From the NCBI GenBank assembly GCA_051362555.1, contig CM120649.1, positions 5,208,001-5,272,000 of the forward strand: 64,000 nt of DNA, written 5' to 3'. The position numbers and the translations under genes were made by a program. Of the stretch, positions 18,347-59,309 are shown piece after piece; positions within the stretch are counted from its first letter, which is position 1, and the number at the start of each line of letters is the position of its first letter. The notes under the pieces were generated by a model, which had not been told where the DNA came from, did no database searches, and saw only the letters and a list, made by a program, of their open reading frames with translations. Source of the stretch: Lingula anatina (Eukaryota > Animalia > Brachiopoda).

Positions 18347-18848
18347 CTCGTTGTGGCACGTAAATATTGAGATTCAGACATTCCTCAGTCTGGTCCTCCA
18401 AGAAGGGCATCAGTCTCAAGAAGTGCTGCACCCTGGCGTAGGGCATCGTCTTCCTCAACTCCGCCTCGTCTATGGCTCTCTGGGGGCACACGGCCCGCTT
18501 GCCGTACACGATCCGCGTCCCGTCCCACTTCTCCGTGGGGCTGGAACACACCATGAACCTGTGGTCCCCGCCCTGCAGGGAGGCGTACTGCAGCCCGAAA
18601 TACGCCTCCACGGGCACCAGATGGGGGTTGGGAATCTCGAGGAGAAGACCTCGTAGTTTGCCGTACTGCGTAGTGACGATGCGATCGACTAGCTTCCTCT
18701 CGTAGACTTTGCCTCCGGTCAAGGGGACGAGGACCAGCACGTGGAGGAGTAGGGCGCACAGCCCCGTGAGAAAGCCTCGGGGGCGGCTGAAGCCCGCGGG
18801 GAAGGTCGTTAGAGAGGGTTGCACGAATGAATAACCGGGCCACTGCAT
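18347..18848 (-). CDS. NLGN: Neuroligin-like (carboxylesterase type-B family) protein, first coding exon; gene continues beyond the left edge of the window
   Basis: Hydrophobic leader (LCALLLHVLVLVPLTGG) followed by IVTTQYGKLRG, VEAYFGLQYA, RFM, W.G, VCPQ and QTEECLNLNIYVP, matching the N-terminal cholinesterase-like region of neuroligins. GC-rich coding composition. Donor CGAG|GTAGGT at 18346, just after NIYVP, where neuroligin genes typically have an intron. Catalytic-site region not visible, so another carboxylesterase-family member is not excluded. Confidence 0.85.
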
Positions 18849-19508
18849 GACTTTTAGTGGCTTTAATGAACAAATGCACCACCGGTCCTGTTATGTGCCT
18901 GTGTGTATGTGTATATATACAGGCAAGATCGCGTCTCTCTCCCTCTCTATAAGTCGACGTTTATTTTCGTGAGAGATAAAACTTTTCTCCGCTCCGTACA
19001 AAATCCTTGTCAGGCGTCGTCAATTGGCTTATCCGCCATCCAACTGAACCAACACGACTCTCGCTCTTCAACGCTACTCTTCGCCTCCTTAGTGTCTCAA
19101 TTGAGTCACGCATTAAGCCTCCTAGAACCAATTATCAATAATCAAAGCGGCGGCTTCTCTCGTGAAAGTTCCTCGAGTCAACGCTATGTTTCCCGTACAG
19201 CCTCCGGCGTGGAGAATCCTTCTCGGCGGGATGTCAACCCGTGCGACGTTTTTTTTCCCACCTCTCTCCCGTTATTATCATACCACGGTAGGTGCTCTCT
19301 GTAGGTTAATGCGGGCGATGTACGACCTTTTCTCTGCTGTGTCAACCCAGTGTAGTACTAAACGCCATGAAAGACGACATATCCCACACAAAGGCTAATG
19401 CAGCCCATAAAACTGTTTATGGACGTTCGCTTTGATCCACGTGTAGTAGTGTACCTGTTACGAGACGCAGCGCCTCTCTTTCTCGCTCTCAACTCACTGT
19501 TCGCTGTG

Positions 19509-24634: not shown

Positions 24635-25603
24635 GGAAATAACGTTATTGATCATTAAACACATTCGTAAAGGAGGTAAATTTATTTCGTTCAATCACGA
24701 TAAAGGTACAAAAATCTGCCCAGCAACAGCGAGTACATGTACATACTGGCGTACTGTTGGCTACTGAATCTTATTCTTTTGTTGACTGTATGACGAAAAA
24801 ATGAAACCATGAAAACTATGAATATGATTTCAACAAGACATGAAAATGAAGTCTATGGTAGTATAAAGTCTGAGGAAGTATAAAATCACACTGTAGATAC
24901 GACGAATCCACGGAACCTCTTGAGGTTCAAGTTTTCACAACAGTTGATGCTCGCAGTCTTCCAAACACTAGACACGGCAGTCGAGAAAAGACGTCTTGGG
25001 AATCTTCATATTACAAACCCGTAGTAAACTTGAACCCTGAAAGTAAGAGTGAAAATTGAGAATTTTGCTCTCCTGTGGTACATGTATGGCAAGTTTAAAA
25101 GTATTAAAGCAGATAAAAATGAAAAATGAAAAAAAATGAAAAGTCTCCAACTCTCTGAAGTCATGGTCGGCAGACGAAGTCTATTTTTGTTTTTGTCTTT
25201 TAAACATATGGTAATAAAAAGGCATCGCAGTTAACTATTAAGGCCGGTAGGAATTTTTCTAATTGATACATGTAGGACATCTCAAATTCACAGTGTGGAC
25301 GATTTTTTATCATTAAAACAACAAAATCGATATTTGAGTAAATTGTGAACATTTCCCACTTAAATATTAGCACAAAGTAGCAAAAACTCTGCAATCGAAC
25401 ATGTATTGTGCATCAAACTAACGTTATTTGGGAATTTTTTAAAAACAGATTGATATTATTAAGGCTATATTTAAGGAGTCCACAAATAAATTTAACGTCA
25501 TTTTAAGTGCAAAATGGTTTTAAAAGGGAATAAAGGAATTTCGATGAACGATGCTTAAACTTACCTTTATGGTAGGTAGATACAATTCGTTTCATAGGGT
25601 GGT

Positions 25604-25915
25604 TTAATATCGCCGATAGCCTCTGTAATACCCTCCTCTGTAATTTCTGTAATTTTGGACTGTGGGTGGATCATTAAAAAAGCTGCCACCGGAACCAGAC
25701 CCAGCACCAAATCCAAAGCCACCGTTGGAGCCACCACCGCCGCCGCCGCCACCGCCGCCGCCGCCGGGAGCAGAGCCAAAGCCGAAACCGGCACCAAAGC
25801 CGGATCCCCCTGGGCCACCGCCACCGCCGCCACCACCGCCGCCACCGCCTCCGCTGAAGTATTGGGCGAAGATCGGCATGATGATCAGGCCGAGGATGAA
25901 CAGGTGCTTCAACAT
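25604..25915 (-). CDS. Secreted glycine-rich protein GRP-1 (103 aa) with Tyr/Arg-rich tail
   Basis: ATG at 25915 (MLKHLFILGLIIMPIFA|Q), TATAAAA at 25999-26005, two poly-Gly/GFG modules, tail YRNYRGGYYRGYRRY. Donor AAG|GTAAGT at 25564, probable acceptor at 25037. Confidence 0.9.
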   Translation of the reverse strand: MLKHLFILGLIIMPIFAQYFSGGGGGGGGGGGGGPGGSGFGAGFGFGSAPGGGGGGGGGGGGSNGGFGFGAGSGSGGSFFNDPPTVQNYRNYRGGYYRGYRRY

Positions 25916-25998
25916 CTTGACGACTATCTGGAGGACTGCCGGGAAGAGTTTTCCAAAGCAAACCTCAGTTGGTCTGTTGTAGTCGTAGAGAGCGCTGG

Positions 25999-26005
25999 TT
26001 TTATA
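25999..26005 (-). promoter_or_regulatory. TATA box of GRP-1
   Basis: gcTATAAAA about 90 nt upstream of the ATG, same position as in paralogs. Confidence 0.75.
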
Positions 26006-27153
26006 GCTTTTGCTCTCTAGCGTGTACAGACCTCTTCTTTGGTAAAAACCCATTTGTCACAATGCATTACACAATAAAAACAAAACAAAACACTGTTATA
26101 TTTTTGATTGAATACTTTTACTGGACCTCTACTATACTACAATACTTCCGGATAGTTACAATATTTCCGTTTCTTGTCCTGTTGATGAGCGGGAACGGAT
26201 TATTTCCTGCTTCAAAAAGTGTAATGATGGCCCTTAATGCAAGAGGATAATTGAAGTTAAACATGCCAATCCACCCTTTTCCCATTAAAGAGGTAACTTG
26301 AATGACACTAAATCAAATGGCACCATTTCCACTGACCATTTTTCCAGGGGGAAAGTTAAAAAAATGTTTCCTTAATTTGTGGTCACGGCACGTGGGGAAA
26401 AAGCTCATTTGTCATTAGTATTGATGGACAGAAAGCCTGATAGCCTTCAGTCATGTCACGCAAATGTCTTTAGCAGATTTCAAATTTACCTTTTAATTTT
26501 GATGCAGTGGAATACATATTGCTGAACTAAAATGCTCGACAACGATGATTTACGCTGCGTTTTTATCCTGCGTAAAAGTTCGAATATGGAGATAAAAATT
26601 AATTATGGAAACTTGGAAATGTAATTTTAACCTGTTTCTACATGGTCATTGTACTGCACAGTTTAGTTTGATAATGGGTAGAGAGGACAGTTATTATATC
26701 AACGATTTATATTATATGTATGTATACCAAAGGTATAATCATACACGTGCGTGAACTGAATGCTCTTCCCCTTTTTCTCTCTTGCACGTTGTCATTATCT
26801 GCACGTGCATGTGTGCACGTACTTGCGTAGATGTATATTTGTTCGCGTGCAGCTGGCGTAGATCGCGTGCGGCTACACTCCGTGAAAGGGCCTAGTAGCA
26901 TGCTTACTGACCATCAAGTCCTTTATTACGTCAGTGGTCATCAGGATATAATTGTTTCAATTTCCCATTTGTCGAAAGAACAAGAACGTACCATATCTAG
27001 AAAAAATTGTGACACGGTGCCTATTTAAGACATTGAAAACATTGAAGTGCAGGCTATAGTGATGGTTTGTTTATTAATTGATTTATGTTTTGTGTTGTTC
27101 GGTGGCAAATGTGATTTTACCTAAGAGGTCTGTGCACGCGAGAGAGCAAATGC

Positions 27154-27160
27154 TATAAAA
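27154..27160 (+). promoter_or_regulatory. TATA box of GRP-2
   Basis: gcTATAAAA 91 nt upstream of the ATG. Confidence 0.75.
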
Positions 27161-27244
27161 AACAGCGCTCACTACGACTACAACAGACCAACTGAGGTTT
27201 GCTTTGGAAAACTCTTCCCAGCAGTCCTCTAGATAGTCGCCAAG

Positions 27245-27556
27245 ATGTTGAAGCACCTGTTCATCCTCGGCCTGATCATCATGCCCATCTTCGCCCAATA
27301 CTTCAGCGGTGGCGGTGGCGGCGGTGGTGGCGGAGGTGGCGGCGGTTCCGGAGGATTTGGCTTTGGTTCCGGGTTCGGCTTTGGCTCATCTCTCGGTGGC
27401 GGCGGCGGTGGCGGCGGCGGCGGTGGTGGCTCCAACGGTGGCTTCGGATTTGGTTCTGGGTTTGGTTCCGGCGGCAGTTTTGTATATGATCCGCCCACAG
27501 TCCAAAATTACAGAACTTACAGAGGAAGGTATTACAGAGGTTATCGAAGATATTAA
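27245..27556 (+). CDS. Secreted glycine-rich protein GRP-2 (103 aa) with Tyr/Arg-rich tail
   Basis: Signal peptide identical to GRP-1, tail YRTYRGRYYRGYRRY. Donor AAG|GTAAGT at 27579, acceptor ttttactttcag at 28285, AATAAA at 28622. Confidence 0.9.
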   Translation: MLKHLFILGLIIMPIFAQYFSGGGGGGGGGGGGGSGGFGFGSGFGFGSSLGGGGGGGGGGGGSNGGFGFGSGFGSGGSFVYDPPTVQNYRTYRGRYYRGYRRY

Positions 27557-28014
27557 ATCACTCCATTCTACCATAAAGGTAAGTCAAATCAACTCCCTAA
27601 ACATCCCCTTTTTCACACTAAATTTATAAGTATTTAAATTTTTGTTTATCGCTGTGCACTATACATGTAGATGTAACTAAATATTGAGGGGATCAGTTTA
27701 TCAACAAGCAGCGTTAGGTTACTGTATTGCAACAGATGAATCTCCCTATTTCTGTCTTCTTTATTATGCATGGTGTTTCGGGGGACATCTAACAAATCAA
27801 GCTGTAAATTTTATGCATTGAGTACTTCGAAAACATATCATCTAGGTCTTTCGTTATGCTTTGGCCCAGAGACAGTGATGATCATATTGGACCACACCCA
27901 TTCGTCATTCTGACCGTTTATCATGCCCTTGCCCTTGATAAAACTTAATAAGCAAGACCTTTCTAAACGTGCTATATTGCTCCTATTATTAATGTTACGG
28001 GCCTTGCTACTTGG

Positions 28015-32563: not shown

Positions 32564-32821
32564 ATGTTGAAGCACCTGTTCATCCTCGGCCTGATCATCA
32601 TGCCGATCTTCGCCCAATCCTACAGCGGAGGCGGTGGCGGCGGTGCTGGCGGTGGTGGCGGTGGCCCAGGAGGATCCGGCTTTGGTGCCGGTTTCGGCTT
32701 TGGCTCTGCTCCCGGCGGCGGCGGCGGTGGCGGCGGCGGCGGTGGTGGCTCCAACGGTGGCTTCGGCTTCGGCGGCGGCTTTGGTTCCGGTGGCACTTAT
32801 AACGGTCCACCCCCACCTTAA
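32564..32821 (+). CDS. Secreted glycine-rich protein GRP-3 (85 aa), ends TYNGPPPP
   Basis: Signal peptide identical to GRP-1/2, two modules. Donor AAG|GTAAGT at 32844, acceptor at 33615, AATAAA at 33915. Confidence 0.9.
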   Translation: MLKHLFILGLIIMPIFAQSYSGGGGGGAGGGGGGPGGSGFGAGFGFGSAPGGGGGGGGGGGGSNGGFGFGGGFGSGGTYNGPPPP

Positions 32822-39479: not shown

Positions 39480-39872
39480 ATGTTAAAGAACCTGTTTATT
39501 CTTGGCTTGGTGATCACTCCAATCTTCGCCCAAGCTGGCGGCGGGGGTGGCGGTGGAGGCGGTGGCGGTGGCACCAACGGCGGATCTGGTTACGGTTTTG
39601 GAGCAGGCTTTGGTTTCGGCCAAGGCAATAGTGCTACCGGTGGCAGCGGCGGCGGCGGCGGCGGCGGTGGTGGAGGTGGCGGAAGCAGTGGCCCCAACGG
39701 TGGATCTGGCTACGGCTCTGGAGGCGGCTTTGGTTTCGGCAGCGGAAATGGTGCCGGCGGTGGTGGCGGCGGTGGCGGTGGTGGCGGCGGTGGTGGCAGT
39801 GGCACCAACGGTGGATCTGGCTACGGCTCTGGAGCAGGCTTTGGGTTTGGCCAGGGCAATGGCAGACGCTAA
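39480..39872 (+). CDS. Secreted glycine-rich protein GRP-4 (130 aa), three modules, C-terminal GRR
   Basis: MLKNLFILGLVITPIFA|Q, three (G12-14)..NGGSGYG.G.GFGFG modules, ends GQGNGRR*. Donor at 39894, acceptor at 40188, AATAAA at 40425. Confidence 0.9.
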   Translation: MLKNLFILGLVITPIFAQAGGGGGGGGGGGGTNGGSGYGFGAGFGFGQGNSATGGSGGGGGGGGGGGGSSGPNGGSGYGSGGGFGFGSGNGAGGGGGGGGGGGGGGSGTNGGSGYGSGAGFGFGQGNGRR

Positions 39873-41877
39873 TATAGCCGTCTATTTTAAAAGGTAACTT
39901 TCGTCTTCACATAGTCTAAATGTGTTTTCTCCTTTTTTGTCCTCTAACGTGATTTGAAACTTACATTCATTTACCGATTATTTTGTTTATATCCTTCCTT
40001 ACCGTATTTCAATCATTACATAAAAATATTTTAAAACGGAAATATAGAAATGACATATTTTAAACTTTTTATTAAATACGGCTTAAAAATGATTTTCAGA
40101 TTTTAAAGTAAGTTAACAAAATGCCAAAAGCAAATGGTTAATATTTCGATGCAGTGAATTGAAAATGTTTTTTCTGTATTATTTTCAGAGGAGAGGCAAA
40201 ACTGTCACTTAATGTTGTCGAAAACACGTCTCTTTGACAAGGATTGAACAAGACAGACATCGTAAAGCTCTGTATCGTCAGAATAAACGACTATAAAGAT
40301 TTTGTGACTTTGACACTAAAAAAGAAACCGTTTGAAAGCGAAGAAGATTTATAGGGTGCGCCTCATATTGTCTATCAGTTAAACCAAAATTAAATCAGCT
40401 GTTACCAAGTCTTATTCACTGTTAAATAAACATTTTTATCACATATAAAATATGTGTCTAATGTTCATTTATCTTTTGTCTCGTAAATTTAATCAGCAAG
40501 TAAGAACATTTCTGTGGGTGTTTTTTCTCTTTCTCTTTTTTTCTTTTTTGGAGGTATATTTTACAATCAAGCAAAGCATATATATATATAAAAAAAACGA
40601 GATTATTTTGAACTCCATCGTCTGGAAAACTAACATTTTACTGTCATTCCGTAACGTTGTAATTTGTTTGTGCCCTACTAGCTGTTGTGTGTCTTACTGA
40701 TAATCCTAAATAAGGAAATACTGAAACACGCGTCTCAATAACCTTCTATGAAAATCAATCACTACAAGGCACTAAGCAGATATGGGGATGCATGCATGTA
40801 TTTTGCTCCTTGGGGTCATCACCAAATCGCCTGTTTAGGTGCCACCTGTAACACTTGTATATGACCTTAAAGTAGGTACTGTACTCCCAGTTACCAGTTC
40901 GCTTTTTTCTCTAATTATCTTTTCCATATATGACGGAAATAAGTGATAATGTTCTCTCACGCGCTATGTTCTTACTACTGATATATTTGATGACATTGGT
41001 ATAATGTTGACATCGCACGCGGTCTTTGACGGCAAAATAGAAACATTTCGCCGGAAGTATTAAAGCATCGGTGGAGCGTGGATTCCCAGTAACATATATA
41101 AAACGCTTCTACTAGTTTCTTATACAACTCAAATTAATTAGATATGCCAAGGGATAAATCACTCGACCATGGCCATAAAAGAGCTTTAAACTGCTCCTTT
41201 CTTTAAATTTTTGGTCTGAAATTTTACCTACTTTCGTGATATACTTTTCTACCCCATTGATATACAGCATAGAATGCTAGCAGAAAAATCCGTACAATAT
41301 TATTTTTCGGGTAAAATTGAACGATTCCTTTTGCTTATTCTCTTGGTTATATTACTAGAAACTGTGTGCTGGCATTTGGTTGGATTTTGTGGCAAAAATT
41401 CTATCTTTAAACACAGTGAGATATTTAGAAAAGCGGTCTGTTACATACGCTTGCTTAAACCTTAACTGTAAGTCAAGTGAAACAACTAAATTATTTATTT
41501 GTATATTTAATTTAATACATATTTTGAATTTAAATTTAAATTTTAATTTAAAAATGTGAAATGTCAAAAATTAGCTTTAAGCCATATAGGCTAGTACAAT
41601 GAACGGTACCCAAAACTCTTTGCTCTTTCACTAAGATCTTGATAGTTATTTTTGGCGAGATTTTTCCCTTTAAAAATTGGTATAATGAGTGTCCACAATA
41701 ATATAACTTGAAAGTAAAACGTCACCATCAACTAAAGACGCTTTTAAATGCACTCTTTGTGACAAATGCTCCCACTCCCCCCCCCCCCCTTATCTCTCTC
41801 TCTCTCTCTCACTCTCTCTCTCTCTCTCTCTCTCCAGCAGTTGCACACGGTTAGGTACAATGTTTCATCATTTTATA

Positions 41878-44768
41878 CAGTCATATGGCAACTGACTGCG
41901 CATAGGAAGATATTCAGAACGGAGCGCATGCGCTAAGATGACGTCGCGGTCGAAAATGTGTAACCTGCGCGGAAATTAAAGAATTGTACTTTATTACCTC
42001 TGTACTCAGCGGGCAAATTATGTTGTTTTAACGTTGAAACAACGTTGAACCATAACGTTGATAATAGGTTGGATAAACATTGGATTTGAAAGTTGAATCA
42101 ACGTCAGATAACAACATTGTATCAACACCAGTTGTTAGACAACATTCCTGCATGAAAAGACAATAAAATGACCTGAAATGTTTTTATTTTTGGTACAAAA
42201 CACAGGTACACAATAATAACGTACACTGTAAAAACATCCAAGTGCCTGCTTTGTCTGATCTTTTTCAACGCATTTAGCTCCTAATAAGCATGTTTTGCAC
42301 CTAAGCATGGTACACCCTTTTAGCCTGGGTGTGTTTAGCAGTAGGACATGTTTGATAGCTAAATATATGTAGGGTATATGTGAACATGGAAAAGGTCAAG
42401 GACGTTTCAGATCGTTGAGGGTGCGCGCGCGCCATCTGGTGTTAAATCCGCAACTGATTGTTGAATTGCGGTAACTTACTTTCGAATCGTTTATTGATTG
42501 TTAGATTTTGACGAATGATTAAAATGACCAAAAATAATTTAGTAGAATTAAGTTTAGATAATTAAAATAGGTTTTGGCTGTTAAATAGTGCCAATAGATT
42601 GTTGAATTGACGTCTGCATTTTCTGCGTGAATGGCGTTCCATAAAAACGACTTCAGAATTTAGCACTGCACGCGTCTTTGACATATTTCCACTTGGTGCC
42701 GGGGAGTTCAATTTGTAGCAGACACTTGGCATAAATTGGACTTTTAATGGGAAAGGATCACTTAAAGGGATAATAACTCTTCGTTTCGGCCAAAAAATGA
42801 ATTTTCCTGGAGTAAACAACAATTTTCACATACTTACCAATGGTTAATAAGTCCATTTTTACATTCAAAGTTAGTCCCTGGTTTTTTTCTAAAAAGTTTG
42901 TTTTTTTGTTAAAATCTCTTAAGAGATTTTAACAGAGTATAGCCATCAATGGAGGTCACGTGGTTTAAATACAAGCTCATGCAGATATCAGAATAATAGC
43001 TATACCTCTGTCACTGCCGTTTTTGTGGTAAAACAGAATATATTATATTTCTGTGAGTTATTCACAATGTTTTTATTGTAAACTATGTAAATCTTGATAA
43101 CTTCTGCAAATACTCAATATATAGATTTCAAATCGTATTTGAAATTATTTTTACAAAAATCTCAATACCTGTTATAGAGCTGCCCCCCTTAATCCTTTCT
43201 TTTACAAAAATGGACTGAGCCGCACAAATTTGGAATGCGGCATTGGTATCTTTGATAAAATTGGATACTTTTTAAAGATTTGCACCTGGGTTAACAAAGT
43301 GCGTTTTCCATGGGAAACTTTGTTTACCAATTTTTCTTAGTTTACCAATGAATGAACTTTACACGTTCTGACAATGACATTTTGTTTGTGTCAGCGCACA
43401 TATATATCTCAAACATATTTCCGTTAGTAAAAGTGTGTCGTGACAGTAGATTTCACGTACTTATATTACTTTTTGAACAATTCCATATTTTCAACTTGTA
43501 TATTTTTTCAAATTCAATATTCAATTTCAGTTAAATAAAAATCAGAAATGCATAAATCTTAAGTCCTTTTAATATATCGCTTTCAGGCTTCTATTTGTAT
43601 GTGTATCAAAAAAGTATCACTAATTTGTGATTCGATCATTGTTGAGAAGCTTGCGGTACAGATAAAATAAGAAAACTGTTTCCTCTCATCCAACTTGCCA
43701 TACACAGATAAAGTATACCAGAAAACATATTGGCACATACAGGCAGAAAAGCTCCTCATATGTGAATTCTGAAATAATGAGAAAAAAGAAGCTGACAATA
43801 ACTGTAATGAAATTAATAACGATGAAGACAAGAGCTAACTGAGCACTTTTAGAATTAGCTGAGGTACTTGTAGTGGTAAATTACATCATACCGGTATAAA
43901 CCCATGGCATTTAATGATAGTTGAACTAAGCATCATGAATTGCGTTTTACTTTAGTAGGCCTGTTTTACAAACGTTATCATGAATCAATATTACCTTTGT
44001 TAAATGTTCGTCATCCTTTTCTGTTCTGGAGTTAAGCTACAACCCGCAGCAGATCCACATTTATCCACCTCTCCCACTTCTTTCCACGTGTTCACTCTAA
44101 TTTGTTTACTAGTAGGCCTACGCGAACCCTTTAACACATATGTAGGTCAACATATACTCTACTGCATAAATGATATTAGATTACGTAAATCCAAGCCCTT
44201 TTCCTAATATTAATAAAATAATAAAATCTCACAGAACTGGACCAATTTTCAAAATGCATATCTAAATGCACACGTTTGCCTTTTGCATGTTACACATCAA
44301 GGATAGGTGAAGGTCGTTCATAAAAATATTCACTGAAACTAGTTCAAACTGGTTGTGTGCGATTCAGCATCGATTTTAAAATCGAAAACTTTGGGTGATA
44401 TTTTAACTCATATCTAAAAATGAGGAAAATTCAGGCTGGCAATATAGTCCCACCCCCTACGAGAGTTATTTTGCGATCAATTTTTTTCAAAAAATCAAAA
44501 TCGTGAACATATTTCAACTAAATTTGTTCATGTTTCAGTAATCCTTTAAAATCGGGAGTAATAACATGAACTGTTCTTATCATCTTTACAAAACCACAAC
44601 TTAAAACGCCCTTGTTTGTTTTTAAAATGATTATATTTGCAAGGTACGGTTTTTCACGTCAGCCAACGCAGATGTCCCGAAGCGGCGCTACTTCGTGACG
44701 CGGACTCACTGAAAAGTTTCAAATAACCGACATGACGTTACGTTTTTCAGCCAGTTGCCATCTGACTG
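41878..44768. mobile_element. About 2.9-kb non-autonomous DNA transposon, probably Tc1/mariner type (TA target)
   Basis: TIRs CAGTCATATGGCAACTGACTG / reverse complement CAGTCAGATGGCAACTGGCTG with TATA outside both ends. The GRP-4 unit lacks this segment (~39075-39097). No transposase ORF recognised. Confidence 0.8.
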
Positions 44769-45072
44769 TATAGTCAAGGCGTGTAGAAGAAGCTTTGGCA
44801 ACGCCAGTATTGACGCTCACCTAGGAAGCATCAATGTCATTTTTTATCACCATCTCACCGCAAACAAGCACTTAGACATGAAATATGACCAGGAATTACT
44901 CTCAACAAGAGTTAGGATCGGTCTAAGACCTCGATGATGCAAACAATTAATCTTGAAGTTTTATTTTGTCCTTATTCTATTTTCATGTTTTGTTTTCAGA
45001 GTGAACTCAAATTTAAAATAAAACATACAAAGTTAAAAGCCTCAGGTCATGCAGCACACTGGTGCTCAAGGC

Positions 45073-45079
45073 TATAAAA
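45073..45079 (+). promoter_or_regulatory. TATA box of GRP-5
   Basis: gcTATAAAA 91 nt upstream of the ATG. Confidence 0.75.
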
Positions 45080-45163
45080 ATGGAAGTTTTCGTCAGCTGG
45101 CACAAACCGACCAGAGGTTAGAGCAGGAGAAGTATCTTTACTGTCCTTCTGATCGTAACCAAG

Positions 45164-45427
45164 ATGTTAAAGAACCTGTTTATCCTGGGCTTGATGATCA
45201 GTCCAATCTTCGCCCAAGGTTGCGCCGGGGGTGGCGGTGTCGGTGGAGGCGGTGGCACCAACGGCTTTGGCTCCGGTTTTGGAGGAGGATTTGGTTTCCT
45301 CTCCGGACCTGGTGGTTCCGCCGGCGGCGGCGGTGCTGGAGGTGGTGGTGGGGGTGGCACCAACGGTGGATCTGGCTCCGGCTCTGGTGGGGGCTTTGGC
45401 TTTGGCTGTGTCGGTGGCAAGCGCTAA
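45164..45427 (+). CDS. Secreted glycine-rich peptide GRP-5 (87 aa), two Cys, C-terminal GKR
   Basis: MLKNLFILGLMISPIFA|QGC...GCVGGKR*. Donor at 45449, acceptor at 45830, AATAAA at 46078. Confidence 0.9.
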   Translation: MLKNLFILGLMISPIFAQGCAGGGGVGGGGGTNGFGSGFGGGFGFLSGPGGSAGGGGAGGGGGGGTNGGSGSGSGGGFGFGCVGGKR

Positions 45428-47166
45428 TGTCGCAATCAATGTTGAAAGGTAACTCTCGTTTTCACATATTTTAAATGTTTTTTTCTCTTTTTTGTCTTTG
45501 TGTTTCTAATGTGTTTTGAAACTTACTTTCTTTTTCCAATTAAGTATTTAATATCCTTCGTTATCGTATTTCTGTACCATCAGATAACAAAATTTAAAAA
45601 AGACATTTAGAAACGACATGTTTCTTTTCTTTTCTTTTCATTAATTACGGCCCAAAAATGTTTTTCGTAATTATGTGGAATATAGCTCTACGTCCATAAA
45701 TTTAGAATTAAAGCATTTCATTAGATTCACCCCCATATTTCCAAAACAGTGCAAAATGCAAAAAAAAAACAAATGGTGAATATTTCGATGCAGTGAATTG
45801 AAAATGTTTTTTTTTCTGTATAGTTTTCAGAGGAAAAGCACAACTGTCACTTAATGTTGCCGAAAGCACGTCTTCACAGCAAGGATGGAAGAGTACAGAC
45901 ATATTTAAGCTCTGCATCGCCATTACCTGATCGTAGCAGATCAACGCCTATAAAGATTTTGTGGCTTGGACTCTAAAAAAGATCTTGTTTGAAAAGGAAG
46001 ATTTATGGGATGCGCCTTCTATTGTAATCAGTTTCACCAAAATTAAATCAGCTGTCACCAAGTATTATGCTTTGTTAAATAAATATTTTACCGCATATCA
46101 AATATGTCTTTAATATTCACTTTTTTTATCGAAAATTTGTCTTATCAAGTGAAAAATATTGTTTTATTTTTCTTTCTGGTTTTTATTTAATTATTTATTT
46201 TTTTGGAGATTTCTTAACCTGATTACCATTAGCTTATGCGTCAACAGTGTGTGAAAAATAAATAAGTGCCATTGTGTTTCACAATATATATTACTAGACA
46301 GTAAACAGTGCATTAAAAATTATACAGGCTGAGCGATAATTCAGCCAACCGACAGTCATCGGCATACATACAGTACCTAACACAGTTCGTCGTGCGCGGT
46401 GTCCATTCACTCAAAAATTCTAAGAAGAAAATAAAGAAAAAAATTATACAAGAGCGATATTTCTCATCCAACCACGGTCAATGACGCCTGTTCCAACCAG
46501 ACGACTGTTTAACGTCGCAAATTTAATCTTATTCGTTAGGATCTACATTGTATAGGAACAAATTTCTTTATAACTCCCCAGTGGGAGGGTAATCTAAATA
46601 AAATAATAGGGGAAAGTAAAAGAGGCGAACGGTTTTCAATATACCTGTAAATATTACAAAATTCAACTAAGACACAAGTTAAAATATAAACATTTGTTCA
46701 GTACAGGAACTACATGTAAAAATAAAGAGAGTAAACTTGCAAAGAAATAGAATAAAGATGAATAAGAAAAAACAGAAATTTAAGTATATATAGTAGTAAA
46801 GACCATGGCCTTGATTTAAAAAAATATAAAAGCATTTTGTCTTTTTTCTCACGTAAAGGAATACATGCACGTGTCCTCAATAATTTATATTCTTACTTCA
46901 ACGCTAAATCACTGATTACATCAATAGTCAGCCATTAATAAATGTAAGGTAGCGGTTTATATGTCCCAACTGCCTATATTTCAAATGCACCTCTGTTGCA
47001 CAATGTTGCTTTGTTCTGTGATACAAACTAGGTGGTTGCTTAATCATTTAAATTCAAACACACAGTAGAATTATTATTAGCATCTCTTTTAACAGTAGGC
47101 AGACACACAGGTGGCTTAGACGTAATATATAACCGACAACCATACGTACGTGACTTGAAATTTCAT

Positions 47167-47168
<2 letters not shown>

Positions 47169-47218
<50 letters not shown>

Positions 47219-47630
47219 CATTGGTCAAAAAGGTTGTCCCACCCCCATTTCCATGTACTTTTATTTACAAATGATCACCTCACAGCTGTGAACTGTTAAA
47301 AATAGTGCTTTTTATTACGGATATCGTGTCTAACATGATTAATAGTTTAAAAAGTACAAAATAGTGGTGAAAATATACACATTTTATACCATTTAGTAAA
47401 ATTTATAAGAGGTACCCCCTCAAATCGACTATTTCACTGTGACTTCTACAGATATAAAGAAATGTCTATAAAATTGAAAAGACGTCGTCAAATGTCACCA
47501 AATTCACACAAAATTAGCATTAGGGTGTGCTCGTTAAAGATCACGTGCCTAACAGCGTGTGCGTCTACCGCGTACTGCAATTATCTCCTGTAGACGGCGC
47601 GACAAGCCTTCAACACGGGTTACAATTCTG
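47169..47630. mobile_element. (TA)n tract followed by a possible Tc1/mariner terminal fragment at the junction of the GRP-5 and GRP-6 units
   Basis: TA|CAGCATTGGTCAAAAAGGTTGTCC at 47216 resembles Tc1-type termini. The segment has no counterpart at the end of the next unit (~53253). No partner TIR found. Confidence 0.4.
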
Positions 47631-48569
47631 TTTTGATAATCCTAAATAAGGAAATACTGAAATACGCGTCTCAATAACCTTCTATGAAAATCAATCACTA
47701 CACGGTATTAAGCAGATATGGGGATGCATGCATGAATTTTTCTCCTTGGGGTCATCACCAAATCGCCTGTTTAGGTGCCACCTGTAACACTTGTATATGA
47801 CCTTAAAGTAGGTACTCCCAGTTACCAGTTCGCTTTTTTCTCCAATTATCTTTCCCATATATGACGGAAATAAGTGATAATGTTCTCTCACGCACTATGT
47901 TCTTACAATTGATATATTTGATGACATTGGTAATGTTGACATCGCACGCGGTCTTTGACGACAAAATACAAACCTTTCGCCGGAAGTATTAAAGCATCGG
48001 TGGAGCGTGAATTCCCAGTAACATATATAAAACACTTCTACAAGTTGCTTATACAACTCAAATTAATTAGATATGCCAAGGGATAAACTGAATAAATCAC
48101 TCGACCATGGCCATAAAAGAGCTTTAGACTGCTCCTTTCTTTAAATTAGGCTATTGGTCTGAAATTTTACCTACTTTCGTGATTTACTTTTCTACCCCAT
48201 TGATATACAGCATAGTCGGTAGAAGATGACTTTTAATACGCAAAATAAACCTACCAAGTTTCATCAACATTTATTCTGGCAATTATTTCAGTAGCAAAAC
48301 TATATTTCCAATAATCAAAAACCAGTCTGTTAAAATCATTTTTACCTTCTCGGATGTCTTAATTCAAAGACGTCATTTTTATCATTATCGCAGCTGCAGT
48401 TCTGCGCTGGCGATGAGAGTTCTTCGCGAAATTTGTCGTCATACAGCAGTCTCCACAATTTTGAATGAAAAATCGACTTAGCATCAGAGTATCTTATCTG
48501 TTAACCATTATGTACTGCGTCTCAATCTCTCTTGTTTATTTCCATTATCAAATTTCAGCAAACAAAACG

Positions 48570-50826
48570 CATGGAACGCCATTCACGCAAAAAATGCAGA
48601 CGTCAATTCAACAATCTATGGGCACTATTTAACAGCCAAAACCTACTTTAACTTTCTAAGCTTAATTATTCTAAATTAGTTTTGGTCATTTTAATCATTC
48701 ATCAAAATCTAACAATCAATAAACGATTCAAAAGTCAGTTACCGCAACTCAATAATCAGTTACTGCAATTCAACAATCAGTCGCGGACTTAGCACCATGC
48801 AGATGGCACTCGCGCACCTTCAGCGATCTGAAACGTCCTTGACCTTTTCCATGTTTTCAATTCCGCATATTATGCAGCACACGAACTATATGTGGTGCCT
48901 CGATATGAAATCAGACAACTTTTGTGTTTTTAATCTACAAATACTAAAAAAAAATCAACTAAGTTAATAAAGGCGTTCCATAAAAACGACTTAAGAATTT
49001 AGCACTGCACGCGTCTTTGACATATTTCCACTTGGTGCAAGGGAGTTCAATTTGTAGCAGACACTTGGCATAAATTGGACTTTTAATGGAAAAGGATCAC
49101 TTAAAATTTCATGAAAAGTAAACTATGTAAATCTTGATAAATTTTGCAAATACTCAATATATAGATTTCAAATCGTATTTGAAATTATTTTTACAAAAAT
49201 CTCAAAACCTGTTATAGAGCTGTCCCCCTTAATCCTTACAAAAATGGACTGAGCCGCACAAATTTGGAATGCGGCATTGGTATCTTTGATACAATTGGAT
49301 ACTTTTTAAAGATTTGCACCTGGGATTTTCCATGGGAAACTTGGTTTACAAATTTTTTTCAGTTTACCAATGAATGAACTTTGCACGTTATGACAATGAC
49401 ATTTTATTTGTATCAGGCCACATATCTATATATCTCAAACATATTACCGTTAGTAAAAGTGTGTCGTGACAGTAGATTTCACTTATATTACTTTTTGAAC
49501 AATTCCATATTTTTAACTTGTATATTTTCTCAAATTCAATATTCAATTTCAGTTAAATAAAAATCAGAAAATTATAAATCTAAAGTCCTTTTAATATATC
49601 GCTTTCAGGCTTCTATTTGTATGAGTATCCAAAAAGTATCACTAATTTGTGATTCGATCATTGTTGAGAAGCTTGCGGTACAGATAAAATAAGAAAACTG
49701 TTTCCCCTCATCCGACTTGCCATAAAACAGATAAAGTATACCAGAAAACATATTGGCACATACAGGCAGAAAAGCTCCTCATCTGTGAATTCTGAAATAA
49801 TGAGAAAAAGAAGCAGACAATAACTGTAATGAAATTAATAACGATGAAGACAAGAGCTAACTGAGCACTTTTAGAATTATCTGAGGTACTTGTAGTGGTA
49901 AATTACATAATACCGGATTACCGGTATAAATCCATGGCATTTAATGATATTTGAACTAAGCATCATGAATTGCGTTTTACTTTAGAAGGCCTGTTTTACA
50001 AACGTTATTATGAATCAATATTACCTTTGTTAAATGTTCGTCATCCTTTTCTGTTCTGGAGTTAAGCTATAACCCGCAGCAGATCCACATTAATCCACCT
50101 CTCCCACTTCTTTCCACGTGTTCACTCTAATTTGTTTACTAGTAGGCCTACGCTAACCCTTTAATACATATGTAGGTCAACATATAATCTACTGCATAAA
50201 TGATAATAGATTACGTAAACCCAAGCCCTTTCCTAGGGTAAGACTTTTAAATAAACTATAACTTCTCATTAATTAAATCTCACAGAAGTGGACCAATTTT
50301 CAAAATGCATATCTAAAAGCACACGTTTGCCTTTTGCATGTCACACATCAAGGATAGGTGAAGGTCGTTCATAAAAATATTCATTGAAACTAGTTCAAAC
50401 TGGTTGTGTGCGATTCAGCATCGATATCAAAATCGAAAACTTTGGGTGATATTTTAACTCATATCCGAAAATGAGATAAATTCAGGCTGGCAACTTTTTT
50501 TTTCTTGCAATATAGTCCCACCCACTACGAGAGTCATTTTGCGATGTTTTTTTTTTTTCAAAAATTCAAAATCGGGAACATAATTCAACTAAATATGTTC
50601 ATGTTTCAGTAATCCTTTGAAATCGGGAGTAATAACATGTTCTTTACAAAACCACAACTCAAAACGCCCTTGTTTGTTTTTGAAATGATTATATTTGCAA
50701 GGTACGGTTTTTCACGTCAGCCAACGCAGATGTCTCGAAACGGCGCTACTTCGTGACGCGGACTCACTGAAAAGTTTCAAATAACCGACAGGACGTTACG
50801 TTTTTCAGCCAGTTGCCATCTGACTG
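48570..50826. mobile_element. Rearranged second copy of the 2.9-kb transposon (right TIR kept, left end lost, internal inversion)
   Basis: Right TIR cagccagttgccatctgactg-TA ends at 50826. ~48570-48855 is the reverse complement of ~42385-42642. Forward similarity resumes at ~48972. Confidence 0.75.
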
Positions 50827-51133
50827 TATAGTCAAGGCGTGTATAAGAAGCTTTGGCAACGCCAGTATTGACGCTCACCTAGAAAGCATCAATTTCATCA
50901 TTTTTTATCACCATCTCACCGCTAACAAGCACTTAGAAATGAAATATGACCAGGAATTACTCTCAACAAGTTTTAGGATCGGTCTAAGACCTCGACGATG
51001 CAAACAATTAATCTTGAAGTTTTATTTTGCCCTTATTTTATTTTCATGTTTTGTTTTCAGAGTGAACTCAAATTAAAAATTAAACATACAAAGTTAAAAG
51101 CCTCAGGTCATGCAGCACACTGGTGCTCAAGGC

Positions 51134-51140
51134 TATAAAA
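51134..51140 (+). promoter_or_regulatory. TATA box of GRP-6
   Basis: gcTATAAAA 91 nt upstream of the ATG. Confidence 0.75.
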
Positions 51141-51224
51141 ATGGAAGTATTCGTCAGCTGGCACAAACCGACCAGAGGTTAGTTTAAAAGAAGTATCTTT
51201 ACTGTCTTCCTGAACGTTCTCAAA

Positions 51225-51488
51225 ATGTTAAAGAACCTGTTGATCCTCGGCTTGATGATCACTCCAATCTTCGGCCAAGGTTGCGCCGGGGGTACCGGTA
51301 CCGGTCAAGGCAGTGGCACCAACGGCTTTGGCTCCGGTTTTGGAAGAGGATTTGGTTCGGGCACCGGACCTGGTGGTACCTACAGAGGCGGAGGTGTCGG
51401 AAGCGGTCGAGGCGGTGGCATCAACGGTGGATCTGGCTCCGGCTCTGGCACCGGCTCTGGCTTTGCCTGTGGCGGTGGCAAGCGCTAA
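51225..51488 (+). CDS. Secreted glycine-rich peptide GRP-6 (87 aa), two Cys, three internal Arg, C-terminal GKR
   Basis: MLKNLLILGLMITPIFG|QGC...ACGGGKR*. Donor at 51510, acceptor at 51893, AATAAA at 52141. Confidence 0.9.
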   Translation: MLKNLLILGLMITPIFGQGCAGGTGTGQGSGTNGFGSGFGRGFGSGTGPGGTYRGGGVGSGRGGGINGGSGSGSGTGSGFACGGGKR

Positions 51489-54400
51489 TGTCGCAATCAA
51501 TGTTGAAAGGTAACTCTCGTCTTCACATATTTTTCCATTTTTTTTTTCTCTTTTTTGTCTTTGTGTTTCTAATGTGTTTTGAAACTTACTTTCTTTTTCC
51601 GATTAAGTATTTAATATCTTTCGTTACCGTATTTCTGTACCATCAGATAAAAAAAAAATTAAAAACAGACATTTAGAAACGACATGTTTCTTTTCTTTTC
51701 TTTTCATTAAGTACGGCCCAAAAATGTTTTTCGTAATTATGTGGAATATAGCTCTACGTCCATAAATTTAGAATTAAAGCATTTCATTAGATTCACCCCC
51801 ATATTTCCAAAACAGTGCAAAATGCAAAAAAAAACAAATGGTGAATATTTCGATGCAGTGAATTGAAAAAAAATTTTTCTGTATAGTTTTCAGAGGAAAA
51901 GCACAACTGTCACTTAATGTTGCCGAAAACACGTCTCTTTAGCAAGGATGGAAGAGTACAGACATCTTTAAGCTCTGCATCGCCATTAACTGATCGTAGC
52001 AGATTCAACGCCTATAAAGATTTTGTGGCTTGGACTCTAAAAAGATCTCGTTTGAAAAGGAAGATTTATGGGATGCGCCTTCTATTGTTCTCAGTTTAAC
52101 CAAAATTAAATCAGCTGTCACCAAGTTTTATGCTTTCTTAAATAAATATTTTACCGCTTATCTTTGATATTCACTTATCTTTTTTTTCTCGAAAATTTGT
52201 CTTATCAAGTGAAAAATATTCTGTTTTATTTTTCTTTCTGGCTTTTATTTAATTAATTATTTTTTTTTTTTTTTGAAGATTTCTTAACCTGATTACCATT
52301 AGCTTATACGTCAACAGTGTGGGAAAAATAAAAAAGTGTCATTGTTTTTTACAATATATATTACTAGACAGTAAACAGTGCACTAAAAATTATAGAGGCT
52401 GAGCGATAATTCAGCCAACCGACAGTCATCGGAATACATACAGTACCTAACACAGGTCGTCGTACGCGTTGTCTAATCACCCAATTTTTTAAGAAGAAAA
52501 TAAAGAAAAAAATTATACAAGTAACATTTCTCATCCAACCGCGGTCAATGACGCCTGTTCCAACCAGACGACTGTTTAACGTCGCAAATTTAATCTTATT
52601 CTTTAGAATCTACTTTGTACAGGAACAAATTTCTTTATAACTTCCCAGTGGGAAGGTACTTTAAATAAAACAATAGGGGAAAGGAAAAAAGGCTGACGGT
52701 TTTCAATATACCTGTAAATATTATAAAATTTAACTAAAACGCAAGTTAAAATATTAACATTTGATCGGTACAGCAGGAACTATATGTAAAAATAAAGAGA
52801 GTAAATTTGCAAAGAAATAGAATAAAGATGGATTAGCAAAAACATAAGTTAAAAAATATATAATAGTAAAGAGCATGGCCATGTTATAAAAGGCACTTTA
52901 ATTCCTGTCTCTGAACAGTATTTTGTCTTTTTTCTCACGTAAAGGAAAACATGTTTGTGTCCTTAATAATTTATATTCCTTCTTAAAAGCTTACTCACTG
53001 AGCACATCAATAGTCAGCCATTCCTAAGTGTAAGGAAGCGGTTTATAAGTCCCAAGTGCCTGTACTTTAACTGCACCCCTGTTGCATAATTTTGCTTTGT
53101 TCTATGATAAAGCCTCGGCGGTTGCGTAATCATTTAAATTCAAACACACAGTAGAATTATTGTCATCATCTCTTTTTTACAGCAGGCAGAGACACAGGTG
53201 ACTTAAACATAATGAATAACCAGAAACCATACGTACGTGACTTGAAATTTCATTTATTTTTTTAACTTTATTCACTCAGAGAAAAAAGAAATTTAATTTA
53301 TAAATATATCAGATCTTGCAATTGAAAACGTAGAATTGAAATATTTCAGCAGACCCCACAACATATCCCTTAAACAAAGTATTATTCAAAAAGCAAATGA
53401 TAATATTATCTGCATGCATTTCATTACAGTGAAATGCATTTTCTTCTGTTTTATTGTCTTCAGAAAAAAATGTTATTGTTGCACTATGCTGCGGAAATCA
53501 CGTCTCACCAGTGAGGATGGAGATTAGCCAACGTTTTAATAGCTCTGTATCTTATTTCCGGCAGGTATACCGGCTAAAAATCTTTGACACGAAAAAAGTT
53601 TGAAAACAAGATGATGATGTAATTCTTTGGCACCGAAATTAAAACAGTAGAAATAGATACCTTTTTTTTCACATACCAGATACCAGGATGTGTCTCAAAT
53701 TTATTTGATCTCCATTTTTTTTCTTTTTCTTTTCCTGCTTTCTCTTTATCATGGCTTAAACCTAAACATTTCATTCCGATATCTCTCCCTACATTTTATT
53801 CTTTCTTTTCTATCTCTGTTTTCTTTCTAGCTTTTTTCTCTCTTTTACCTTTTCTGTCTCTCTCTCTCTCTCTCTCTTTTACCTTCCTTTGTAAAATTAT
53901 ATTTTCCTCATTCTTTTCTTCATCTTTTCATTACAATACTATTATTAAATTCTTCACTTTAGGGGCTATTTGTCATGAATACCGTAAATGAACGCATTTT
54001 GACATCTAATTTGTTAATGACTGATATTGTGATAAAGGCAAGCGATATGATTTTCGATGTGACTTATTTAGAACATTATTATGAAGGAAAAGCAATATGC
54101 ATGGAACAGTAAATAGCTTTTAAGCCTTTCCTCAATGTAAAAAAAAAGAAACAGTAACAGTGCGTTTTTGTTGTGCATACTAAACACACATCAGACGACT
54201 AATGAAAAAATACTGCAATGTTTTCAAGTTTATTACCGACATTTAAAACAAACAATATAAAGATGTATACAATTCACGAATCAATACGTACACACGCACA
54301 CACACACACACACACACACTTGCACACACACACACACTTTATTTTGAGCATTAAAACGTGTTAATATAATAACAAAATGCAAACATTAACAATATGATCG

Positions 54401-58751: not shown

Positions 58752-59309
58752 ATGTGGAAGGTTGCGTTTATTCTCATGGTGGCGGCTTTGCCGATCATGT
58801 CGCAAGAGTCTTTCAGCTATTCCTTCAGCACTGACGCTGAGGGGAATGTTGTGAGTTCAAGTTCTAGCAGCGATGGTACCAGGGGTGCGGCCGGAGGGGG
58901 TGGAGGCGGTGGAGGCGGTGCCCCGCCGCCTAGAGGAGACGGCGTCGGCACCCTGAGCGCCCGACGGGGTCCTGGCGATCCTATCATCATAGATAACGGG
59001 CAACCTCCAGGAGGAGACGGCGGAGGCCCAGGGCAAGGAGGCAGCGGTGGTGGTGGCGGTGGCGGTGGCGGCGGCGGCGGTGGGCGTGGCGGCAGCGGTG
59101 GTAGCGGCGGTAGCGGTTTTGGAGCTGGATTTGGTCAAGGAGGCGGAAGCGGCGGCGGCGGTGGCGGCGGCGGTGGCGGTGGCGGTGGCGGCCAAGGTGG
59201 CAGTTATGTTGGCAACGGTGGAGCACCCCCGGGCTTTACCTCCCCCGAGGACATTGCCCGGTGGGTTGGTAACAATCTGCAGAGACTTGCACAGAATGTT
59301 GGACGTTAG
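58752..59309 (+). CDS. Secreted glycine-rich protein GRP-8 (185 aa) with RGD, RR site and non-Gly C-terminal segment ending GR
   Basis: Signal MWKVAFILMVAALPIMS|Q, poly-Gly tracts with one GSGFGAGFGQG segment, ends PEDIARWVGNNLQRLAQNVGR*. Donor CTG|GTAAGA at 59314. Confidence 0.9.
   Translation: MWKVAFILMVAALPIMSQESFSYSFSTDAEGNVVSSSSSSDGTRGAAGGGGGGGGGAPPPRGDGVGTLSARRGPGDPIIIDNGQPPGGDGGGPGQGGSGGGGGGGGGGGGGRGGSGGSGGSGFGAGFGQGGGSGGGGGGGGGGGGGGQGGSYVGNGGAPPGFTSPEDIARWVGNNLQRLAQNVGR

What the first reader, a model, noticed from the sequence alone, without database searches (positions are those of the whole stretch)
45164..51488. Signature of positive selection between GRP-5 and GRP-6
Seen (manual codon alignment): both are 87 aa with no indels. 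22 codons change the amino acid (19 in the mature region), only 4 differ purely synonymously (L8, G56, G63, G75), and kilobases of flanking non-coding DNA are near-identical. Several changes are multi-nucleotide (GGC>ACC, GGA>CAA, GCC>TAC). GRP-6 gains three Arg while GRP-5 has no charged residue in its mature core. Inference: rapid adaptive divergence, more typical of immune or venom effectors than of passive structural proteins.
Basis: partly seen in the sequence, partly recalled or inferred. Interest (0 to 1): 0.78.

Follow-up and report, generated by a model that had tools for sequence, protein, structure and literature searches.

The report
Brachiopod glycine-rich duplicate remodelled, selection unproven
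Two neighbouring copies of a small glycine-rich, likely secreted protein gene in a lamp shell differ at many amino acids, mostly because one copy swapped every second glycine for another residue; this likely reflects selection for a new surface, but the usual dN/dS test does not prove it.

Summary
The proposed proof is weak. dN/dS is 1.3 (mature part 1.45, CI 0.7-3.7) and is significant only under GY models with fitted codon frequencies. The flanks are not a valid clock: promoter, intron and exon 2 differ by 4%, while 5'UTR, silent sites and distal flank differ by 15%, close to dN. Six of the 26 codon differences vary among other individuals, and one shared tract points to gene conversion.

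Other evidence does show a changed regime. Sister pair GRP-1/2 has dN/dS 0.21 (p 0.003). Change falls mainly on GRP-6 (10:3, 9:1, 8:1 by three outgroups), with symmetric flanks (29:27). In two former poly-Gly tracts, 8 of 11 even codons changed and 0 of 11 odd (p 0.001, post hoc), giving Gly-X repeats and up to three arginines.

The window is brachiopod (neighbouring neuroligin 99% identical to Lingula anatina). No homologue was found. Spliced GRP-5-type RNA is seen; GRP-6 expression is not shown. A structural role is somewhat likelier than an immune one; nothing supports venom.

The parts
45164..45427 (+). GRP-5 CDS, 87 aa, single coding exon; mature part 60% Gly, no charge apart from terminal K-R
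51225..51488 (+). GRP-6 CDS, 87 aa; mature part 50% Gly, three internal Arg (Arg54 reads Ser in run X2)
45164..45214 (+). GRP-5 predicted signal peptide, codons 1-17, followed by Gln (judged by eye, no predictor run)
   Evidence: sequence; conserved in six paralogs
51225..51275 (+). GRP-6 predicted signal peptide; 3 of its 4 differences from GRP-5 (codons 8, 13, 17) are not fixed among runs
51288..51317 (+). GRP-6 tract 1 (codons 22-31): former poly-Gly, changed at 24, 26, 28, 30 only
51384..51419 (+). GRP-6 tract 2 (codons 54-65): former poly-Gly, changed at 54, 58, 60, 62 only
45239..45247 (+). GRP-5 codons 26-28: the GRP-5-type transcript of run X7 carries GRP-6 letters here (shared polymorphism, likely a short conversion tract)
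   Evidence: contig 22
45221..45409 (+). Cys20 to Cys82 span, both Cys kept in GRP-5 and GRP-6, absent from GRP-1 to GRP-4; disulfide inferred
51477..51485 (+). C-terminal Gly-Lys-Arg, a predicted amidation signal (also 45416-45424 in GRP-5)
   Evidence: sequence; meaning of the motif is recalled knowledge
45073..45079 (+). TATAAAA box of GRP-5 (51134-51140 in GRP-6)
   Evidence: sequence
45449..45830 (+). GT-AG intron in the GRP-5 3'UTR (51510-51893 in GRP-6)
   Evidence: spliced reads in X17, table 5
45831..46090 (+). GRP-5 non-coding exon 2 with AATAAA at 46078 (GRP-6: from 51894, AATAAA at 52141); 3' end approximate
43078..47170 (+). Duplicated unit holding GRP-5
   Evidence: (89.7% over 4192 columns)
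49118..53257 (+). Duplicated unit holding GRP-6
39480..39872 (+). GRP-4, 130 aa, nearest outgroup paralog, pure poly-Gly tracts, ends Gly-Arg-Arg
25604..25915 (-). GRP-1, 103 aa, control pair member
27245..27556 (+). GRP-2, 103 aa, control pair member
32564..32821 (+). GRP-3, 85 aa
55067..55918 (-). GRP-7, 283 aa, more distant cluster member, not analysed for rates
58752..59309 (+). GRP-8, 185 aa, more distant cluster member, not analysed for rates

Best explanation
GRP-5 and GRP-6 are tandem duplicates in an eight-gene cluster of glycine-rich, likely secreted brachiopod proteins, and GRP-6 has replaced every second glycine of two poly-Gly tracts, likely under positive selection for a new protein surface, while gene conversion has likely kept parts of the flanking DNA young. 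Shown: the gene pair, the counts, the parity pattern, the lean of change towards GRP-6, shared polymorphism, and spliced GRP-5-type RNA. Inferred: the 17-residue leader is cleaved, Cys20-Cys82 close a loop and Gly-Lys-Arg is trimmed to an amide. The Gly-X repeats would form beta-strands with one bare glycine face and one face of Thr, Gln, Ser, Val and Arg, so GRP-6 would be a stiffer, cationic variant of a neutral flexible ancestor. For the role I favour an extracellular structural or matrix protein (about 0.55) over an antimicrobial peptide (about 0.3); both are untested.
For: Control pair GRP-1/2 has a like Gly content (49-50%) and dN/dS 0.21; N:S 29:9 against 12:18, p 0.003. Polarised amino-acid changes, GRP-6:GRP-5, are 10:3 with GRP-4 (p 0.09), 9:1 with GRP-1 (p 0.02) and 8:1 with GRP-3 (p 0.04), while flanks are 29:27. 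In the tracts 8 of 11 even and 0 of 11 odd codons changed, p 0.001; 8 of 11 has p 0.0015 even at neutral divergence 0.15. Placement of the 9 lost glycines gives p 0.0009. CpG does not explain it: 2 of the 8 changed codons start in a CpG and 5 other CpG-starting codons are unchanged. Correcting for base class, 34 mature differences are seen against 15.2 expected from both flanks. Intermediate codons exist in other runs (26 in X7, 54 in X2), so these two double changes arose stepwise. GRP-6 is intact, and its codons 31-87 differ from the window at 0, 1 and 0 sites in X1, X2 and X4. GRP-5-type RNA is spliced in X17 and X7 and laid on the CDS in 1 of 4 raw-read runs.
Against: dN/dS is not significantly above 1 by counting (p 0.34), in 8 of 12 pairwise ML fits or in 6 of 8 branch fits. 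Mature dN is no higher than the older non-coding and silent classes (p 0.45). The divergence peak includes the non-coding 5'UTR (12 of 63). The parity test was chosen after seeing the data; with 6 independent events p rises to 0.02-0.07 at divergence 0.13-0.17. The GRP-4 asymmetry alone is not significant. The X17 transcript against GRP-5 also gives dN/dS near 1.2 (hand count), so the fast regime is not confined to GRP-6. Adjacent differences are in excess in the flanks too. The four-strand model of GRP-6 has pLDDT 50 and is not reliable. GRP-6 expression was not shown. No call tests function.
Confidence: 0.47

Rival explanations
1. Relaxed constraint on an older duplicate: the pair is about 0.13-0.15 diverged, conversion or constraint keeps promoter, intron and exon 2 at 0.04, and GRP-6 drifts at free positions while alternate glycines are still required.
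For: dS 0.13, 5'UTR 0.19 and distal flank 0.15 agree, and mature dN is not above them (p 0.45); the non-coding and silent classes are heterogeneous, p 8e-11. MG and equal-frequency models do not reject omega = 1. X17 against GRP-5 also gives omega near 1.2.
Against: 8 of 11 even codons changed, against 0.23-0.29 per codon expected if neutral (p 0.0006-0.003). Few differences in GRP-6 across three other runs. No indel in the CDS against 1.9-4.0 expected from flank rates (p 0.15 and 0.02).
Confidence: 0.33
2. Mutational templating: slippage and short conversions inside the GGN repeats made several clustered changes at once, so there are fewer events than codons and no selection is needed.
For: 11 adjacent differences against 5.4 expected in the mature part, with the same excess in both flanks. 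In GRP-6, codons 24 and 26 form a repeated hexamer, and codons 46-47 and 76 share 8 bases.
Against: For most derived codons the longest template found is only 4-11 bases. Codons 28, 30, 58, 60 and 62 gained different residues. Stepwise intermediates are seen at 26 and 54. GRP-1/2 have longer poly-Gly runs and dN/dS 0.21.
Confidence: 0.12
3. Function rival: the pair are glycine-rich antimicrobial peptides diversifying in an arms race, as in the nematode nlp-29 cluster, and GRP-6 gained charge for membrane binding.
For: Tandem cluster, leader, predicted amidation signal, gain of Arg. nlp-29 cluster branches show adaptive evolution (PMC2453101, passages). Ctenidins, acanthoscurrins and serrulin are Gly-rich and amidated (PMC6784228, passages). 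GRP-1 shares a 10-residue Tyr/Arg run with armadillidin CE.
Against: These peptides are described as cationic, whereas processed GRP-5, the type shown to be expressed, would have no charge. No sequence match to any of them.
Confidence: 0.3
4. Assembly artefact: two divergent alleles were placed in tandem.
For: Lingula is heterozygous (1.6%, PMC4595640, passage). No listed contig spans both copies.
Against: X2 shows both types directly. X1 and X4 hold the GRP-6 core and 0.58 and 0.50 of the GRP-5 region's words, where the rest of the window supplies only 0.23. Shared words have about twice the depth of GRP-6 words in X2 (24 against 11.7) and X4 (205 against 108), next to a GRP-4-type contig at 66 in X4.
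Confidence: 0.05

Closest known systems
C. elegans nlp-29 / caenacin antimicrobial cluster (PMC2453101, passages)
   Same: Tandem cluster of small Gly-rich peptides with lineage-specific duplication and branches of excess nonsynonymous change.
   Different: NLP/CNC peptides are Gly- and Tyr-rich and infection-induced; mature GRP-5 and GRP-6 have 0 and 1 Tyr, long poly-Gly tracts and a Cys pair; induction is untested; no homology found.
Arthropod Gly-rich antimicrobial peptides: acanthoscurrins, ctenidins, serrulin, armadillidins (PMC6784228, PMC7017220, passages)
   Same: High Gly content, small size, aromatic spacers, C-terminal amide (predicted here).
   Different: They are described as cationic haemocyte peptides; GRP-5 would be neutral; terminal Cys pair here; no activity data.
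Shematrins and KRMPs of bivalve shell matrix (PMC3896809, PMC4897951, passages)
   Same: Secreted Gly-rich low-complexity families, duplicated and fast-evolving; GRP-1/2 end in a basic run plus Tyr like the R/K..Y signature.
   Different: GRP-5/6 lack GnY repeats and end in Gly-Lys-Arg. [quoted passage not shown]
Divergence peak under gene conversion, e.g. human red/green opsins (PMC3924837, passages)
   Same: Close tandem copies, low intron divergence, higher exon divergence, shared polymorphism.
   Different: The peak here also covers the 5'UTR, the distal flank is as diverged as the exon, and no functional site is known.

Membership tests
Paralog pair under positive selection | dN/dS significantly above 1 | tested here: inconclusive
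   Counting p 0.34; 4 of 12 pairwise and 2 of 8 branch ML fits significant, all GY with fitted frequencies
Paralog pair under positive selection | dN above neutral non-coding divergence | tested here: inconclusive
   Above promoter, intron and exon 2 (p 6e-8), not above 5'UTR, silent sites and distal flank (p 0.45)
Paralog pair under positive selection | Non-random site and lineage pattern | tested here: met
   8 of 11 against 0 of 11, post hoc; 10:3, 9:1, 8:1; flanks 29:27
Paralog pair under positive selection | McDonald-Kreitman excess | not testable with these tools
   One polymorphism in the GRP-6 core across 3 DNA runs; contigs drop alleles
Concerted evolution with divergence peak | Shared polymorphism between copies | tested here: met
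   X7 contig 22 has GRP-6 letters at codons 26-28 between GRP-5 letters at 24 and 30, inside one 31-mer; a third copy is not excluded
Concerted evolution with divergence peak | Peak confined to the selected coding sites | tested here: not met
   5'UTR 0.19 and distal flank 0.148 against mature 0.162
Gly-rich antimicrobial peptides | High glycine content | tested here: met
   60% and 50%
Gly-rich antimicrobial peptides | Net positive charge | tested here: inconclusive
   Met by GRP-6 (3 internal Arg), not by GRP-5 (none)
Gly-rich antimicrobial peptides | C-terminal amidation | not testable with these tools
   Gly-Lys-Arg present in the sequence; the modification itself needs mass spectrometry
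Gly-rich antimicrobial peptides | Antimicrobial activity; haemocyte or induced expression | not testable with these tools
   Runs are coded, tissue unknown
Gly-rich antimicrobial peptides | Sequence homology to a named family | tested here: inconclusive
   No hit; low complexity weakens these searches
nlp-29 / caenacin type | Gly- and Tyr-rich mature peptide | tested here: not met
   0 and 1 Tyr in mature GRP-5 and GRP-6 (sequence)
Shematrin / KRMP | GnY repeats and C-terminal R/K..Y signature | tested here: not met
   Absent from GRP-5/6; GRP-1/2 end in Arg-Arg-Tyr
Lingula shell matrix proteins | Present in the shell proteome | tested here: inconclusive
   PMC4595640 calls its Gly-rich shell proteins collagens; the 9 of 14 novel rows seen have 9% Gly or less. 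4 motifs gave no hit in the 1 held supplement of PMC13425148, which may hold no sequences. GRP-5 has no internal tryptic site.

The most novel reading that the evidence does not exclude
An unannotated brachiopod gene cluster captures the birth of a silk-like (Gly-X)n, disulfide-closed, amidated cationic peptide from a poly-glycine ancestor by stepwise point substitution at every second codon, driven by positive selection and held against ongoing gene conversion, with intermediate alleles still segregating.
Probability: 0.3. Interest if true: 0.7.

Novelty: new member of a known kind. Interest (0 to 1): 0.42.

Why it matters
If true, it is a small, tractable case of how a low-complexity poly-Gly protein becomes a patterned Gly-X protein: two 70-residue peptides that can be synthesised and compared, with natural intermediates in other individuals. 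It would add either a new structural protein family or a Gly-rich defence peptide family to brachiopods, where my searches listed no paper on this cluster. It is also a caution: a default GY-F3x4 fit calls this pair significant while MG fits do not, and near flanks understate the age of the pair.

Tried and rejected
No whole genome is held, so copy number outside the window is unknown and conversion from an unseen paralog is not excluded. Homology: none for GRP-6 among 784 candidates, none for the six-paralog profile among 7949 candidates or 1.84 billion representatives; no Pfam family for 7 of 7 GRPs scanned; one weak PDB hit, E 0.004, to a lysis protein chain, taken as composition; Atlas best 0.78, plant Gly-rich wall proteins, lead only; the second Atlas query got no answer. 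Exact look-up found 0 of 8 GRPs; the GRP-4 query lacked its Met, so 7 count. Structure: GRP-6 four strands at pLDDT 50, GRP-5 no structure at pLDDT 44; fold search best Z 2.4 of 48161 chains; none of this is evidence. No RNA holder was listed. X11, X13 and X14 gave no depth over either CDS core, and X7 had no contig over 51372-51403; contigs drop minor variants, so this says nothing on GRP-6 expression. The GRP-5-type 5'UTR joined to the GRP-6 N-terminus in X1 contig 5 was dropped as evidence of conversion because a shared 31-mer allows an assembler chimera; codon 6 is therefore not counted among the six unfixed codons. CpG decay and GC content were rejected as the cause. Hidden indels were rejected. 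Earlier findings: none. Two papers (pearl oyster low-complexity proteins; ctenidins) are not held. Searches gave nothing used.
Full report
Setting. The window holds eight glycine-rich ORFs between 25.6 and 59.3 kb. An exon at 18324-18890(-) is 99% identical to Lingula anatina neuroligin-4, so the window is from that brachiopod or a very close relative. No whole genome is held. GRP-5 and GRP-6 lie in a 4.1 kb direct duplication. Each has a TATA box, one coding exon, a 3'UTR intron and a non-coding second exon.

Observation. The codon counts are exact: 22 nonsynonymous and 4 synonymous codons, 38 bases, no gap under 4 of 4 gap settings. The flanks are less alike than stated: 5.0% upstream and 9.0% downstream, with 27 indels.

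dN/dS. Counting gives dN 0.174, dS 0.132, ratio 1.31 (p 0.34); mature part 1.45 (p 0.27; bootstrap 0.72-3.68). Pairwise ML gave 1.4-2.4 under MG or equal frequencies (8 fits, none significant, lowest p 0.06) and 2.7-5.4 under GY with F3x4 or F1x4 (4 fits, all significant). On the GRP-6 branch, 6 of 8 fits gave 1.3-2.7, not significant, and the 2 GY-F3x4 fits were significant. I trust the MG fits more, because GY with fitted frequencies reads a 50-60% Gly composition as mutation bias (my own knowledge). The classical test is therefore open.

Flanks as a clock. The mature part has 34 differences against 15.2 expected from the flanks after base-class correction, which looks strong. But the non-coding and silent classes are heterogeneous (p 8e-11). 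Promoter, intron and exon 2 differ at 40 of 939 bases; 5'UTR, silent sites and distal flank at 104 of 696. Mature dN exceeds the first group (p 6e-8) and not the second (p 0.45). In 9% of downstream 210-base windows the count reaches 34. The RNA run X17 comes from a diverged source (most reads 90-95% alike). Its GRP-5-like transcript differs from GRP-5 at 22 listed places over 305 bases (7.2%; 40 of 312 rows shown), more than the paralogs' near flanks do. If it is the GRP-5 ortholog, which absent rows suggest but cannot prove, the duplication is older than those flanks look.

Other individuals. I laid 4 of the 9 holder runs on GRP-6 exon 1 (28 of 36 pieces shown). Codons 31-87 of GRP-6 are present in X1, X2 and X4 with 0, 1 and 0 differences. 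Six of the 26 differing codons are not fixed: 8 (GRP-5 letter in GRP-6-type contigs of X2 and X4), 13 (GRP-6 letter in the GRP-5-type contig of X2), 17 (GRP-5 letter linked to the GRP-6 N-terminus in X1), 26 in part and 28 (GRP-6 letters in the GRP-5-type transcript of X7), and 54 in part (Ser in X2). Each link spans under 31 bases or lies in one contig branch, so it is not an assembler join. Shared polymorphism is described as a strong sign of gene conversion (PMC3924837, passages); a third copy in X7 is an alternative. Codons 26 and 54 show one-step intermediates, so these double changes were stepwise. One polymorphism gives no power for a McDonald-Kreitman test.

What does point to selection. 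First, GRP-1/2, also ungapped and Gly-rich, has dN/dS 0.21; GRP-1/3 and GRP-2/3 have 0.50 and 0.32. N:S is 29:9 against 12:18 for GRP-1/2, p 0.003. So composition alone does not produce a ratio near 1. Second, change leans to GRP-6: 10:3 (p 0.09, 6 codons ambiguous), 9:1 (p 0.02, 9 ambiguous) and 8:1 (p 0.04, 10 ambiguous) by three outgroups, while flanks are 29:27. Third, in the two former poly-Gly tracts 8 of 11 even codons changed and 0 of 11 odd (p 0.001); at neutral divergence 0.15, 8 of 11 has p 0.0015, or 0.04 if only 6 events are independent. Random placement of the 9 lost glycines reaches the observed Gly/non-Gly alternation (52 of 69) with p 0.0009. This test was chosen after seeing the data. 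It shows for certain only that alternate glycines are kept; the excess at even codons is what favours positive selection over partial relaxation. Against it, X17 versus GRP-5 also gives about 1.2 (hand count).

Expression. Spliced GRP-5-type reads cover the CDS in 1 of 4 raw RNA runs (X17, depth about 150). X7, listed as DNA by guess, has spliced GRP-5-type contigs at depth 3500-6200 against 6 upstream. Tissue is unknown. GRP-6 transcripts were not shown.

How it likely works. Shown: a hydrophobic 17-residue leader before Gln, two terminal Cys found only in GRP-5/6, a Gly-Lys-Arg end, and Gly blocks broken by Asn-Gly and Pro-Gly. Inferred from general knowledge: secretion, a disulfide-closed loop and an amide; Gly-X repeats form strands with one bare face. 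AlphaFold gave four strands for GRP-6 and none for GRP-5, at pLDDT 50 and 44, too low to count. A neutral, 60% Gly, abundant product fits a matrix protein better than a cationic defence peptide; GRP-6 could have moved towards binding polyanions, whether matrix or microbe.

Comparison. It works like the nlp-29 cluster in its evolution (PMC2453101, passages), like arthropod Gly-rich peptides in its predicted processing (PMC6784228 and PMC7017220, passages) and like shematrins in composition and fast change (PMC4897951 and PMC3896809, passages). It is a member of none on the tests run. The Lingula shell proteome papers name collagens as the Gly-rich fraction (PMC4595640, passages and supplement passages; PMC13425148, passages and one supplement searched). 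A Gly-rich Lingula gene model once taken for achatin is mentioned (PMC8557429, passage); I could not check whether it is in this cluster. Searches listed no paper on this cluster; subscription papers, including any on Lingula immunity, are not covered.

Verdict. A real gene pair with a real shift away from purifying selection. Positive selection on GRP-6 is about as likely as not (0.47, against 0.33 for relaxation). Interest 0.42.

Noticed in passing
window 18321-18890 (-): Neuroligin N-terminal coding exon (Pfam COesterase), 99% identical to Lingula anatina neuroligin-4; the GRP cluster lies 5' of it.
   Followed up: yes
window 25604-25915 (-): The GRP-1 tail shares the 10-residue run YRGGYYRGYR with the isopod peptide armadillidin CE and ends Arg-Arg-Tyr like KRMP signatures. 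Low complexity; chance not assessed.
   Followed up: no
window 25599-27561: GRP-1 and GRP-2 form a head-to-head inverted pair, equal length, dS 0.25, dN/dS 0.21.
   Followed up: partly
window 45298-45392: 8 reads of X17 skip 93 bases with 12 other letters between, a net in-frame loss of 27 codons: a shorter allele or further paralog.
   Followed up: no
window 51885-51893: Two AG acceptors 7 bases apart: X17 uses the second, X7 contigs the first.
   Followed up: no
window 51816-52062: X17 depth about 840, with 1706 reads whose loose ends resemble the GRP-4 stop region: a GRP-4-like transcript is likely more abundant than GRP-5 there.
   Followed up: no
window 45122-45127 and 45146-45163: The short 5'UTR is the most diverged non-coding part of the pair (12 of 63 bases) while the promoter is at 4%; unexplained.
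   Followed up: partly
window 47123-49100: The spacer between the copies holds dispersed repeats that draw partial reads in 4 of 4 RNA runs and match 40698-41272 and 42383-42766.
   Followed up: no
window 39639-39851: GRP-4 has a 111-base internal repeat, giving three Gly modules where GRP-5/6 have two.
   Followed up: no
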